64,000 nt of DNA from positions 326,120,001-326,184,000 of the forward strand of contig OZ024740.1 in assembly GCA_964016885.1 (NCBI GenBank), in the 5' to 3' direction. Position 1 is the stretch's first letter. Each line of letters starts with the position of its first letter. The notes below the pieces were generated by a model. It had not been told where the DNA came from and ran no database searches. It saw nothing but the letters and a program-made list of their open reading frames with translations. The position numbers were made by a program, and so were the translations under genes. The DNA comes from Eledone cirrhosa (Eukaryota). This document shows positions 26,302 to 60,943 of the stretch, one piece after another.

Positions 26302-26852
26302 TAAAATATTAAACAAATAATGAATAAACAATGAGACAGTTCCTTATATTAAACAAAAAAGTTCATTATTTAACGATCGTTTCTAGGATATATATGTGTT
26401 AGAATTGGCATGCATATTCAACAGATCTATGTACAAATTATACAAAATTATACAAACTATCAAGATTAAATATACATACCAACACATATATACGCCGTCT
26501 TCAGATAATACATTATTTCTGAAGACGGCGTATATATGTGTTGGTATGTATATTTAATCTTGATAGTTTGTATAATTTTGTATAATTTTGTACATAGATC
26601 TGTTGAATATGCATGCCAATTCTAACACATATATATCCTAGAAACGATCGTTAAATAATGAACTTTTTTGTTAATATAAGGAACTGTCTCATTGTTTATT
26701 CATTATTTGTTTAATATTTTATCTTGACTCTGTATACCGTTTATCTTTCACCGAAAGTGATTTTTCATTACATCTCTTCTTTCATGATATCCGGAATACA
26801 TTGAGTTCTTCATACGGATTGGACACTACCGTAAACTCTTGTAGATTATCTA
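26302..26852. mobile_element. ~420-bp near-perfect palindrome (26302-26721) plus a 130-bp tail; hammerhead-bearing Penelope-like terminal repeat
   Basis: The arms are reverse complements centred at ~26510, with a hammerhead motif on each strand. Confidence 0.75.
26511..26660 (+). ncRNA. Type I hammerhead motif with ~115-nt helix II domain (family B); antisense copy at 26364-26510
   Basis: cauuauuu CUGAAGA [cggcguauauauguguugguauguauauu...aauaugcaugccaauucuaacacauauauauccua] GAAA cgaucg U U aaauaaug. Helix I is 8 bp, helix III is palindromic (ACGAUCGU) and the cleavage site is GUU. Confidence 0.75.
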
Positions 26853-26908
26853 CATATATATATATATATATACATTCATATATATATATATATACATTCA
26901 TATATACA

Positions 26909-26976
<68 letters not shown>

Positions 26977-27369
26977 TATATATATATACATTCATATATA
27001 TATATATATATATATACATTCATATATATATATATATATATATACATTCATATATATATATATATATATACATTCATATATATATATATATATATATACA
27101 TTCATATATATATATATATATATATACATTCATATTATATATATATATATATACATTCATATATATATATATATATATATACATTCATATATATATATAT
27201 ATATATATATATCATTAATATATATATATACATTCATATATATATATATACATTCATATATATATATATATACATTCATATATATATATATATATATATA
27301 TACATTCATATATATATATATATATATATATACATTCATATATATATGTATATATATATATATATTACA

Positions 27370-27408
<39 letters not shown>

Positions 27409-27509
27409 TCATATATATATTATATATACATTCATATATATATATATATATACATTCATATTATATATATATATATATACATTCATATATATATATATAT
27501 ATATATACA

Positions 27510-27544
<35 letters not shown>

Positions 27545-27826
27545 TCATATATATATATATATATATATACATTCATATATATATATATATATATATATAT
27601 ACATTCATATATATATATATATATATATACATTCATATATATATATATATATATATACATTCATTATATATATATATATATATATATACATTCATTATAT
27701 ATATATATATATATAATTCATATATATATATATATATATATAATTCATATATTATATATATATATATATACATTCATATATATATATATATATATATATA
27801 TACATTCATTATATATATATATATAT

Positions 27827-27859
<33 letters not shown>

Positions 27860-28076
27860 CATTCATATATATATATATATTATATATACATATCATATAT
27901 ATATATATATATATATACATTCATATATATATATAATATATATACATTCATTAGTATATATATATATATATATATATACATTCATATATATATATATATA
28001 TATATATATACATTCATATATATATATATATATATATATACATTCATATATATATATATATTATATATATACATTC

Positions 28077-28111
<35 letters not shown>

Positions 28112-28153
28112 ATATATACATTCATATATATATATATATATATATATATACAT

Positions 28154-28185
<32 letters not shown>

Positions 28186-28195
28186 CATTCATATA

Positions 28196-57560: not shown

Positions 57561-57700
57561 GGTGGGGGGTGTGGGGGCATATTGTCTATATGCTTCAGCT
57601 TGTACCCATGGGAGGTCGGGTACTCTGTATTACTGCGTGACGCCAGAAGTCACGGTCGTGTGTCATTGTCTTTGAGAGGTGTAATTGGGTAAGGTCGGCT

Positions 57701-57731
<31 letters not shown>

Positions 57732-57797
57732 TTGTCTGCTGGGCGCACAAGCAGAAGGAAGTGTTTTTCCTGCCAGCGGCTTTTCACGAAATCGAAT

Positions 57798-57887
57798 TTC
57801 AACTGAGGATACCGTTCTCATAACAACAACAAATGCATGAATTACATCTTGATTGCATGGGAGAACTGTTGAAAAAATTATAATGAA
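57798..57887 (+). ncRNA. Type I hammerhead motif family D (helix I mismatch)
   Basis: uucaa CUGAGGA uaccguucuc...gagaacuguu GAAA aaauua U A augaa. Confidence 0.5.
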
Positions 57888-58312
57888 TAAACAATTTATG
57901 TAACATCACCATCTTTCTTAATGTTATTATATACATATAAATAAATATATATATATAAATATGCAGACGGTTGGTGCAGTGCACCTTACTGCTGCATTAG
58001 TGCAGCAGAAACTCGAGTCCGGGAACCATTATAGGCACCCGTTTTACGTGTGTTATGTTGAAGCAAATAACTATGTGTATACTCTGGGAATGTATCTTAC
58101 ATTGCCCATGGAGTACGCTGAGAGACAACTGGTACTGGCATTGATAAATATGCTGTGTCCGTCAACTCATTATTATTATTATCTCCCAACTAGCGGACTA
58201 TTGAGAGTAAAACTCACCTCCTACATATATATATATATATACATATTTGTCTGTTGGGCGCACAAGCAGAAGGACATGTTTTTCCAGCCAGCGGCTTTTA
58301 ACAAAATCGAAT

Positions 58313-58402
58313 TTCATCTGAGGATACCGTTCTCATAATAACAACAAATGCATGAATTACATCTTGATTGCATGGGAGAACTGTTGAAAAAATTATAATG
58401 AA
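58313..58402 (+). ncRNA. Type I hammerhead motif family D
   Basis: uucau CUGAGGA uaccguucuc...gagaacuguu GAAA aaauua U A augaa. Helix III is one change from the palindrome AUAAUUAU. Confidence 0.6.
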
Positions 58403-58481
58403 TAAACGATTTATATAATATCAGCATCTTTCTTAATGTTATTATATACATATATATAAATAAATATATATATATATATAT

Positions 58482-59503
58482 ATATGCAGACGGTTGGTGC
58501 AGTGCACCTTACTGCTGCATTAGTGCGGCAGAAACTCGAGTCCGGGAACCATTATAGGCACCCGTTTCACGTGTGTTGTGTTGAAGCAAATAACTATGGA
58601 GTATGCTGAGATACAAGCGGTACTGGCATTGATAAATATACTGGGTCCGTCAACTCATTATTATTATTATCTCCCAACTAGCGGACTATTGAGAGTAAGT
58701 TAAACAATTTTTCACTTTTTTATTGTGTTTTTGTTTTGATATGCACTCGTTTTTCCTGCTATTTTGTCTATCACTCTGTTTAGTTGTGAAATTGACTGGT
58801 TCTCTACGCAGCGGCTGACACATTTCAGCTCGCTACTATATTGCTCTATAATGGATAATCGCATTTAATGTCCGTTAAAGGTTCTTGGCACTACCATTGT
58901 TACCATTGCTTTCCTCTAGCCATGGGGCTTGGAGACATGAGCCGAATGCTACCATTCTATTATACATCAATGTGAACTGCTATTTCTAATAGCCAGATGG
59001 CTTAATAATTTGTGTGGGAGACACGTTGGCTGACAGCTTTTAACGGGAACGAAAAGATTGATTCTTTAGCTTCCCGCCGCCACGTAACATTTGTAAATCG
59101 GTGGCTAGTTGAGAGATAGAATCTTATCGGGTGCCAGTTGCTAATGGCTTTACCGTGTCAGTCATCACAAACAGTCATGACAGGCATGGGCCGGTGTTCG
59201 GATTCTGTCGATCGAGTGGTTATTGATTAGGCGATACCCGCTGATGAAGCCGCATAAGCTGATTGTGCATTGTTGCATAATATATGCAGACGGATGGTGC
59301 AGTGCACCTTACTGCTGCATTAGTGCAGCAGAAACTCGAGTCCGGGAACCATTATAGGCACCCGTTTTACGTGTGTTATGTTGAAGCAAATAACTATGTG
59401 TATACTCTGGGAATGTATCTTACGTTGCCCATGGAGTACGCTGAGAGACAACTGGTACTGGCATTGATAAATATGCTGTGTCCGTCAACTCATTATTATT
59501 ATT
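58482..59503 (+). mobile_element. Non-coding element with direct terminal repeats 800 bp apart (pLTR/retrozyme-like), hammerhead at the repeat
   Basis: The module tatatgcagacgg...ctcattattattat occurs at 57959, 58482 and 59281. A complete hammerhead is present only at the last copy. Confidence 0.65.
59237..59346 (+). ncRNA. Type I hammerhead motif family E, intact core, GUC site
   Basis: cccg CUGAUGA agccgcauaa...gugcauug...ugcaua-aua-uaugca...cagugcac...uuagugcagca GAAA cucgag U C cggg. Confidence 0.75.
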
Positions 59504-59523
59504 TATATATATATATATATATA

Positions 59524-60176
59524 CTAGCTGCAGGACCCAGCATTGCACGGGGTAGGAAACGTGAAATAGCAACACGCATATGCAAAGATTGAGGAATGTA
59601 GCTGTGTACCTTTTGAATTCCCTTATTCTCAGGGAATTATTGTTCATCTACTGGAAACGTAGAACACCAGCAGGCCCGAATCGTGAAACATCTGCATGCA
59701 TGTGCAAAATCTGAAGAAAATCAGCTGGATACTCTTTAAGCATACTAAATCTTAGAGTATGATTTTTCTTCCGTTTGGAGAAAATCGGTTAGGTACTTTT
59801 CGAGTTTTATAGACTCGCACCCAGTCAGCCGGACAGACACCATCAGTTATGTCTATTGCACCTGCATGCATACTGTACAGAGTAAAGCCTGCAATGCTTG
59901 AGTAAGACATGTCATGCAACCGCACATCATGTTGGGCCTTCCCCACAGGAGACCATAGCCTCTTCGTAAAACTACCCAATCTGATATAGACCGAACTGTT
60001 ATATTGAAAATGAAAATGGCATGTAATGCCCAATGCTAATCCATAAATTTCCTAGAAACCATTAATGGAATTGGAAATTCTTTTTGTCCACAGCAATGCG
60101 AGGGGACTAACCAATGTGTGCTGCAAATTTCGAGGAAATCTGGTAGATTATCTTTAAGTTACGCCTCAAAAAAGCC
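59524..60176 (-). mobile_element. Non-autonomous Helitron, 3' end (left boundary firm, right boundary approximate)
   Basis: Minus strand accccgtgcaatgctgggt imperfect hairpin + cctgcag + CTAG|T. This is the canonical Helitron 3' terminus next to (TA)n. Confidence 0.6.
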
Positions 60177-60835
60177 TAAATGTAAGTATGTATGTATACG
60201 TACATACATATATGTATACAGACGTACAGTAGTATGTATATATATATACATACATGCAGACATATGTACGTATGGGTTTACCGAACATTATAATAAACTC
60301 ATACGTACATATATATGTGTGTGCATGTATGTATATATATACATACTACTGTACGTCTGTATACATATATGTATGTACGTATACATACATACTTACATTT
60401 AAGTATCAGCCATACTAAGAGTGAGAAATGAAATTTCGTTTCATTCTTTTCCATTTATCGTTTTCGGTGCTCCCGGCCGACTAACTCACTCGATATGCAA
60501 ATTAGGCTGCTCAGTCGTTAATATGCACAAGGAAAGTATATACTTTCAGACTTTCAATCATCTGGCAGGAAGGTATACGATGCTGACGATAGCTAATAAG
60601 CTTGAAACTAGTACATTGTTCCTGTGTCAGTGTTGAACAAAAAGGCGACGATGGTTGCCTGAACACTGTACATCGTAATTCGGGCTGTTTGTTTGTTTAC
60701 AAACAAACCGAACATTATAATAAATGTTCGGTAAACTCATACGTACATATATATATATGTGTGCATGTATGTATATATATACATACTACTGTACGTCTGT
60801 ATACATATATGTATGTACGTATACATGCATACTTA
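60177..60835. mobile_element. Palindrome (60177-60401) + hammerhead-bearing body + direct repeat of the right arm (~60730-60835)
   Basis: The arms are reverse complements, and taaactcatacgtacatat...catactta is repeated downstream. Confidence 0.65.
60577..60619 (+). ncRNA. Minimal type I hammerhead ribozyme, intact core (family F)
   Basis: acgaug CUGACGA uagc-uaauaa-gcuu GAAA cuag U A cauugu, with palindromic helix III ACUAGU and a GUA site. Confidence 0.78.
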
Positions 60836-60877
60836 TATATATATATATAAAAAGAAATTAAAAGATGGTTAAGAAAG

Positions 60878-60943
60878 TTCCATATGCGCATTTCAAAAAC
60901 AAATATCATCCTGGGACGATAGTTGCGTTCTCATCAGATAAAA
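60878..60943 (-). ncRNA. Type I hammerhead motif family G, apparently missing one nucleotide at the cleavage site
   Basis: Minus strand: uuuuau CUGAUGA gaacgcaacuaucgucc-ca-ggaugauauuuguuuuu GAAA ugcgca U auggaa. Helix II is ~17 bp and helix III is palindromic (AUGCGCAU). Confidence 0.65.

What the first reader, a model, noticed from the sequence alone, without database searches (positions are those of the whole stretch)
26511..60943. Long-helix-II hammerhead variant with a conserved unpaired C at helix II position 4
Families B, C, D, E and G replace the usual short helix II with a 30-115-nt hairpin. By hand alignment, the 4th position is always a 5'-side C in a mismatch: C.C at 26511, 32104, 37272, 37113 and 37945; C.U at 57798, 58313 and 60878; C.A at 59237. 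The first pair next to the core is often non-canonical (C.A, U.U, A.A). The minimal families A and F also have C at position 4 but paired. The shared geometry across unrelated sequences suggests a structural subtype with a tertiary contact or protein-binding site, one that standard descriptors would miss (inference).
Basis: partly seen in the sequence, partly recalled or inferred. Interest (0 to 1): 0.75.

Follow-up and report, generated by a model that had tools for sequence, protein, structure and literature searches.

The report
Retroelement hammerheads with fixed cytosine mismatch
Jumping genes in this animal genome end in hammerhead motifs, predicted self-cutting RNAs, whose second arm is unusually long, and about half of the long-armed lineages keep a cytosine-containing mismatch at the fourth step of that arm, likely because it serves as a docking point that the lost short loop normally provides.

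Summary
All nine motifs are real type I hammerhead sequences with palindromic helix III, 30-115-nt helix II and the stated mismatches. A search blind to helix II gave 150 hits in 1.4 Mb of genome against 2 in reversed DNA. Step 4 (10.4·11.4) is unpaired in 12 of 25 long-arm lineages, against 1 of 25 at each of steps 2, 3, 5 and 6; all 12 contain a C. In one superfamily it is paired in 0 of 33 haplotypes while 8 of 9 neighbouring pairs covary. 'Always a 5′ C' fails: the 59237 family is C-G paired in 19 of 24 copies, the 57798/58313 C·U is decayed C·C, and the 3′ C is as common (11 of 12) as the 5′ C (8 of 12). The families are not unrelated: four traced ones end Hydra-clade Penelope-like elements. 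The odd first pair is already published. No helix I partner was found; cleavage is untested. New variant of a known kind; about 100,000 copies (extrapolated). The scan noted this earlier on other DNA of this genome.

The parts
26511..26660 (+). Hammerhead motif, 115-nt helix II, C·A first pair, C·C at 26529·26637, helix III ACGAUCGU, predicted cut after 26652
   Evidence: family C·C in 42 of 43 copies
26364..26512 (-). Inverted fold-back copy of the same motif (C·C at 26494·26387); helix I 5′ strand damaged
32104..32253 (+). Second copy of the 115-nt family, C·C at 32122·32230
31954..32103 (-). Inverted copy, C·C at 32085·31977, intact 8-pair helix I
37272..37409 (+). Diverged member of the same family, 104-nt helix II, C·C at 37289·37386
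37113..37178 (-). Hammerhead, 31-nt helix II, C·C at 37160·37136 (30-36-nt superfamily)
37945..38009 (-). Hammerhead, 30-nt helix II, C·C at 37991·37968; 3′ end of a Hydra-clade Penelope-like element
37902..43961 (-). The 5′-truncated Penelope-like copy that carries the 37945 hammerhead: endonuclease-coding end at 43574-43961, 3′ UTR split by an LTR-retrotransposon insertion at about 38472-42518
57798..57890 (+). Hammerhead, 61-nt helix II, U·U first pair, C·U at 57813·57867 (family state C·C); A·A at the first helix I pair, likely defective
58313..58405 (+). Second copy of the 61-nt family, C·U at 58328·58382; parent element not found
59237..59350 (+). Hammerhead, 83-nt helix II, C·A at 59251·59327; family state is a C-G pair, so not a member of the mismatch subtype; lies in a roughly 800-nt head-to-tail unit
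60875..60945 (-). Hammerhead, 36-nt helix II, C·U at 60927·60898 (true family state); 3′ strand of helix I lost in this copy; family follows a Hydra-type endonuclease by about 1.1 kb elsewhere
60575..60621 (+). Short hammerhead (14-nt helix II), C-G at step 4; family forms tandem arrays elsewhere
19561..19605 (-). Short hammerhead (12-nt helix II, GAAA loop), C-G at step 4

Best explanation
These are type I hammerhead motifs at the 3′ ends of Penelope-like retrotransposons (Hydra clade where traced), predicted to cut only as dimers through their palindromic helix III, and in about half of the long-helix-II lineages a C-containing one-by-one mismatch at step 4 is likely kept by selection as a docking point for helix I. 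Shown: the motifs, their copy families, their position behind Hydra-type endonuclease genes for four window-or-genome families, covariation of helix II, and the position- and cytosine-specific mismatch. Inferred: self-cleavage and dimer use (from known Penelope hammerheads); selection on the mismatch (it persists while the neighbouring pairs and half of the protein have been replaced); docking on helix I (step 4 is the last pair before the loop that touches helix I in canonical hammerheads, and that loop is pushed 10-50 pairs away by the long arm).
For: Blind search: 150 vs 2 control hits. Unpaired in 25 well-formed long-arm lineages: step 4 12, steps 2, 3, 5, 6 one each; among the 21 lineages absent from the window 9 of 21 vs 4 of 84 pooled (Fisher p 4e-5); without the filter 10 of 25, permutation p 0.005. 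All 12 step-4 mismatches hold a C (C·C 7, A·C 3, U·C 1, C·U 1) against 3 of 15 mismatches at step 1 (p 4e-5). Superfamily alignment: 8 of 9 helix II pairs change on both sides, step 4 paired in 0 of 33; helix I 99% paired and nearly invariant; 0 of 119 copies paired. Parent proteins are only 47-62% identical in RT and 32-47% in endonuclease. A young family with an intact 894-aa frame and 32 identical endonuclease copies carries C·C. Canonical helix II is 4 bp and its loop contacts helix I. Helix III folds as a duplex but not as a hairpin.
Against: 13 of 25 long-arm lineages, including ones behind Hydra-type genes (L238, L042), do without it. No helix I, flank or helix III letter tracks the mismatch after 288 tests on 13 vs 13 lineages, and no loop-flank pairing beats shuffles; helix I is only 4-5 contiguous pairs in 8 of 13 mismatch lineages. 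The lineages are related and their tree is unresolved, so the p values overstate independence; 12 of the 25 lineages are single, possibly decayed copies. Zero of 119 paired copies is by itself expected under neutral decay. Minimum-energy folds of the 115-nt and 61-nt examples do not favour the core-proximal pairs (probabilities below 0.1). In the one Penelope element tested in vitro, cleavage was not needed for insertion.
Confidence: 0.4

Rival explanations
1. The mismatch is selected as a binding or recognition mark for the element's own RT-endonuclease protein, which folds the ribozyme or loads the RNA.
For: The Anolis Penelope hammerhead cut only when its protein was added (PMC11167929, passages). 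C-specificity and no RNA partner found fit a protein reader.
Against: Proteins 47-62% identical in RT would have to keep the same readout while related elements with paired step 4 lost it. No binding data.
Confidence: 0.2
2. The mismatch is a hinge or brake: it uncouples the three core-proximal pairs from the very stable long arm, tuning folding or keeping cleavage slow, with no specific contact.
For: Strengthening stem II can lower activity in natural hammerheads (PMC3088659, passages). C·C and C·U are weak mismatches (own knowledge). Several paired lineages have a G·U wobble there (3 of 25; L069).
Against: A·A and U·U, common at step 1 (11 of 15) and easy to reach in a 29% GC region, never occur at step 4 as a lineage state (0 of 12). 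G·U at step 4 is no more frequent than at steps 3 or 5.
Confidence: 0.2
3. The mismatch is a neutral leftover: C10.4 is the common state in Hydra-clade hammerheads, its G partner was lost once, and descendants simply tolerate it.
For: C-G at step 4 in 15 of 25 published Hydra families (hand count). One origin is not rejected (p-AU 0.15 and 0.11). The 59237 and 57798 window states are plain CpG decay.
Against: Every other helix II pair has been replaced by compensatory change while step 4 was never closed; four lineages keep only the 3′ C; the carriers' proteins are deeply diverged.
Confidence: 0.2

Closest known systems
Hammerheads of Hydra-clade Penelope-like elements (Craig et al. 2021, PMC8557442; passages, section 11 and supplement part 2 with File S2 read)
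   Same: Type I, 8-9-nt palindromic helix III, near the 3′ end, (TA)n insertion, fold-back copies; U·U or U·C next to the core in 15 of 25 listed families; C at step 4 in 15 of 25 (hand counts); parent protein motifs RWK, DKT, CxCx5C.
   Different: Listed helix II regions are 12-25 nt with step 4 paired in 24 of 25 (the other has a 3-bp stem); here 26-115 nt with a C-containing mismatch, and 0.5-1.3 kb between endonuclease and ribozyme.
Minimal hammerheads of metazoan Penelope-like elements (Cervera and de la Pena 2014, PMC4209133; text parts 1-2 of 4 and the supplement PDF read)
   Same: Same core, retroelement context, dimer-type helix III, no evident loop-loop contact.
   Different: Their consensus has an extra base after A9 and a G10.1-C11.1 pair, helix II of 3-8 bp and loop up to 10 nt. 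Here G10.1-C11.1 is seen in 4 of 25 long-arm lineages. That consensus form is carried by the Neptune-like elements of this genome instead. A bulged base inside helix II is known for D. virilis Penelope, but not a two-sided C mismatch.
Natural hammerheads with U10.1·U11.1 (Perreault et al. 2011, PMC3088659; passages)
   Same: Non-canonical first pair of stem II is known and tolerated.
   Different: Those have very short stem II with pseudoknots; no step-4 mismatch in the passages seen.
Chrysovirus type I hammerheads with 6-bp helix II and a bulged A (PMC13725137; passages)
   Same: Longer helix II with a conserved irregularity in mid-stem and no loop-loop contact; these cleave well.
   Different: Viral, stable helix III, single bulged A, tetraloop cap; far shorter arm.
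Animal non-LTR retrozymes (bioRxiv 10.64898/2026.07.22.740005; passages)
   Same: Tandem non-coding units derived from Penelope ends; fits the 59237 unit and the 14-nt tandem families.
   Different: The mismatch families traced here are dispersed ends of coding elements; that preprint's main text has no occurrence of 'helix' or 'stem'.

Membership tests
Type I hammerhead ribozyme | CUGANGA and GAAA core with NUH cut site in type I order | tested here: met
Type I hammerhead ribozyme | Three helices around the core, supported by covariation | tested here: met
   (helix II 8 of 9 pairs, helix III 1 of 3 with two-sided change; helix I 99% paired but without two-sided change); three window copies have a damaged helix I
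Type I hammerhead ribozyme | Self-cleavage at the NUH site | not testable with these tools
   needs an assay; only contigs were available
Type I hammerhead ribozyme | Match to an Rfam hammerhead model | tested here: not met
   0 matches at gathering score in the window; no hammerhead family among 80 and 52 weak matches, the short 60583 motif included
Cervera 2014 min-HHR consensus | Extra base after A9 with G10.1-C11.1 | tested here: not met
   first pair G-C in 0 of 9 window sites and 4 of 25 long-arm lineages
Cervera 2014 min-HHR consensus | Stem II 3-7 bp, loop 3-10 nt, 2-nt helix III insert | tested here: not met
   descriptor against 30-115-nt helix II and 8-nt helix III
Hydra-clade Penelope-like element | Single ORF, RT then C-terminal GIY-YIG; RWK, DKT, CxCx5C linker, CxxC and CxH around E and N | tested here: met
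   intact 894-aa frame in L321 read by eye against the motif list; related RT/endonuclease pieces precede the 115-, 30- and 36-nt families. Pfam gave no hit on 8 such fragments
Hydra-clade Penelope-like element | Placement inside the published Hydra clade on a tree with reference proteins | not tested
   no reference proteins were used; assignment rests on motifs
Hydra-clade Penelope-like element | Insertion into (TA)n with inverted truncated copies | tested here: met
Hydra-clade Penelope-like element | Parent ORF upstream of the 61-nt (57798) and 83-nt (59237) families | tested here: inconclusive
   none found in 30 + 30 loci of the 61-nt family or 30 loci of the 83-nt family
Non-LTR retrozyme (59237 unit only) | Head-to-tail non-coding repeat with one hammerhead per unit, expressed as circular RNA | tested here: inconclusive
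   about 800-nt repeat spacing seen; expression not testable

The most novel reading that the evidence does not exclude
A cytosine mismatch at 10.4·11.4 is a new kind of stem I-stem II tertiary contact that lets hammerheads with an arbitrarily long helix II reach fast cleavage without a loop II, kept across deeply diverged retroelement lineages and present in about 100,000 copies in one genome.
Probability: 0.25. Interest if true: 0.72.

Novelty: new variant of a known kind. Interest (0 to 1): 0.5.

Why it matters
Penelope hammerheads lack the loop-loop contact that makes other hammerheads fast, cut poorly in vitro, and why the elements keep them is open. A single conserved mismatch in a young family with an intact protein is a one-base handle to test whether an RNA contact or the element's protein supplies the missing activation. 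It also shows that a very large ribozyme-motif class (48 such motifs in 1.4 Mb; roughly 100,000 per genome by extrapolation) escapes Rfam and the published descriptor, and a tolerant long helix II would be a useful insertion site for engineered switches.

Tried and rejected
Rfam: nothing at gathering score; weak matches are microsatellite noise. The repeat finder on the microsatellite region was uninformative. Naiad origin, suggested by the 'half-core' remark in Craig 2021: rejected for traced families, whose endonuclease is C-terminal with Hydra motifs. Neptune-like origin: rejected, those elements carry short canonical motifs. Helix I partner or pseudoknot: none; best uncorrected signals were purine at 15.3 (13 vs 6 of 13) and at 10.5 (12 vs 5 of 13), not significant over 288 tests. 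Wobble-geometry idea (G·U, A·C, C·C alike): G·U not enriched at step 4. Monophyly of mismatch carriers: neither shown nor rejected; wrongly included L069, which has G·U, so it was rerun without. L056 was dropped as a link because its endonuclease does not group with that family. Expression: no RNA holder listed. Laying contigs of four runs showed no listed difference at either C but gave too little cover in the other organisms to say anything. No covariance model was built: arm lengths of 26-115 nt do not align across families, so pairs were counted by position from the core. Lünse et al. 2016 on Penelope hammerhead dimers is not held (only its title seen in a reference list) and may bear on novelty; bioRxiv supplements were closed, and 57 of 59 parts of the Craig supplement were only word-searched.
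Full report
Setting. The window is C1:326120001-326184000 of a 3.0-Gb genome, 29% GC, rich in (TA)n and with a C2H2 zinc-finger array. A cephalopod-like host is my inference from these traits, not a tool result.

Observation. All nine coordinates mark type I hammerhead motifs: helix I strand, CUGANGA, helix II of 30-115 nt, GAAA, an 8-nt palindromic helix III, UH, helix I strand. Counting from A9 and G12, step 4 is C·C five times, C·U three times and C·A once, as stated, and the first pair is non-canonical in 6 of 9. 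Two more C·C copies lie inverted beside the first two.

Is it more than chance? I wrote a descriptor that asks only for the core, a palindromic helix III, UH and helix I, and ignores helix II. On 140 evenly spread 10-kb stretches it gave 150 hits against 2 on reversed DNA (stricter versions 74 vs 2 on 0.6 Mb, and 142 vs 1). Of the 150, 83 have helix II of 20 nt or more; 52 of these are unpaired at step 4 against 9, 11, 10 and 21 at steps 2, 3, 5 and 6, and 48 have a C-containing mismatch. Scaled up this is about 100,000 copies; the sample came from the large contigs only.

Family states. Loci came from own-genome searches, which return the copies closest to the query and so lean towards the window's state. 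After dropping 8 loci that duplicate the window or another locus: the 115-nt family is C·C in 42 of 43; the 25-38-nt superfamily that holds 37113, 37945 and 60878 is paired in 0 of 119 (C·C 76, C·U 36, U·U 4, U·C 2, A·C 1); the 61-nt family is C·C in 23 of 29, C·U 4, U·C 2, so the window's C·U is decay at a CpG; the 83-nt family of 59237 is C-G paired in 19 of 24.

Across lineages. Clustering at 70% gave 29 long-arm lineages; 25 have at least 4 of steps 2, 3, 5, 6, 7 paired, 4 were set aside. Unpaired counts of 25: step 1, 15; step 2, 1; step 3, 1; step 4, 12; step 5, 1; step 6, 1. In the 21 not present in the window it is 9 of 21 against 4 of 84 (p 4e-5); with no filter, 10 of 25, permutation p 0.005. 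The 12 mismatches are C·C 7, A·C 3, U·C 1, C·U 1: a 3′ C in 11, a 5′ C in 8, whereas only 3 of 15 step-1 mismatches hold a C. The rule is thus 'a C on at least one side', in half of the lineages. Twelve of the 25 are single copies and lineages are related, so these p values are optimistic. In an alignment of 33 distinct haplotypes of the superfamily, 8 of 9 helix II pairs change on both sides, step 4 is paired in 0 of 33, and helix I is 99% paired and almost invariant; the covariation score exceeds all 500 shuffles and all slid controls, although the count of covarying pairs alone does not (34 of 500).

What carries them. RT-GIY-YIG frames lie upstream on the same strand of the 115-nt family (L063), the 30-nt family (L095, L118, L269), the 36-nt family (9 rows) and a 26-nt C·C family not in the window (L037, L321), 0.7-1.3 kb before the ribozyme, and 0.5 kb before an A·C family. 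L321 holds an intact 894-aa frame with RWK, DKT, CxCx5C and CxxC/CxH motifs, the marks of the Hydra clade; its endonuclease has 32 identical copies among 150 scored, so the family is young. In the window, the 37945 ribozyme and the endonuclease piece at 43574-43961(-) are one copy split by an LTR retrotransposon. No parent was found for the 61- and 83-nt families. Carrier proteins are 47-62% identical in RT and 32-47% in endonuclease; the tree backbone is open and one origin is neither shown nor rejected. Hydra-type elements with long but paired arms (L238, L042) and short arms (L040, L109) also exist. Neptune-like elements carry the short canonical motif.

How it likely works. Helix III cannot fold as a hairpin but pairs as an 8-nt duplex (5 of 5 tested, -2 to -10 kcal/mol), as in known dimeric Penelope hammerheads, so cleavage would need two copies on one transcript. 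In canonical hammerheads helix II is 4 bp and its loop contacts helix I. With a long arm that loop is far away, and step 4 is the place facing helix I; a C-containing mismatch there is my preferred stand-in contact (0.4). It rests on position, C-specificity and persistence, not on a partner: none was found. Rivals are a site for the element's protein (0.2; precedent), a hinge or brake (0.2) and neutral inheritance (0.2). Folding predictions keep 10.4·11.4 open in 5 of 5 examples but support the core-proximal pairs in only 3 of 5.

Comparison with the literature. Published Hydra hammerheads already show U·U or U·C next to the core (15 of 25) and C-G at step 4 (15 of 25), with helix II regions of 12-25 nt and step 4 paired in 24 of 25 (hand counts); U10.1·U11.1 is also known elsewhere. 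Those parts of the finding are not new. A long arm with a fixed C mismatch did not appear in seven literature searches or in the passages read; one key paper (Lünse 2016) was not available. Rfam and the published descriptor miss the motifs. Earlier notes of this scan on other DNA of the same genome reached similar readings; I found them after my own analysis and do not count them as support.

Verdict. Real, abundant and position-specific, but narrower than claimed: a new variant of the Hydra-clade Penelope hammerhead, function untested. Interest 0.5.

Noticed in passing
window 38472-42518 (+): Ty3/gypsy-type LTR retrotransposon (LTRs 38472-38628 and 42350-42518, 89% alike; 1134-aa frame 38871-42272 with protease, RT, RNase H, integrase) inserted into the Penelope-like copy.
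   Followed up: partly
window 52323-54986 (+): 888-aa frame with about 27 C2H2 zinc fingers in an 84-bp tandem array.
   Followed up: no
window 19996-37071: 17-kb (TA)n-rich array with an assembly gap at 24462-24661; the two fold-back insertions near 26.3-26.85 kb and 31.9-32.45 kb are almost identical and may be one event duplicated.
   Followed up: partly
window about 2800-8100 and 10500-16500: A unit of about 7.7 kb is duplicated and holds long 6/12/24-bp degenerate repeats that could encode a low-complexity protein on the minus strand.
   Followed up: no
window 44736-45087: Fold-back fragment of the 3′ tail of a Neptune-like Penelope element.
   Followed up: partly
window 57955-59500: The 83-nt hammerhead family sits in a head-to-tail unit of about 800 nt, interleaved with copies of the 61-nt family; a retrozyme-like arrangement.
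   Followed up: partly
L034, L057, L089, L252: Long tandem arrays with one hammerhead per unit (about 660, 310 and 480 nt periods), paired at step 4; retrozyme-like.
   Followed up: no
L051, L217, L270, about 930 nt after the endonuclease: A Hydra-type family carries a core variant (CAGAAGA for CUGANGA) with a short helix II and a non-palindromic helix III region.
   Followed up: no
alignment A1: Helix I is nearly invariant in sequence across the 25-36-nt superfamily although two of its branches have endonucleases only 46% identical and helix II turns over fully; suggests sequence-specific use of helix I or exchange of ends.
   Followed up: partly
L061, L059, L095, L137, L269: Several long-arm lineages paired at step 4 have purine-rich 3′ helix I strands and pyrimidine-rich internal loops further out; loop-flank pairing was only borderline (p 0.06-0.13 in three).
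   Followed up: partly
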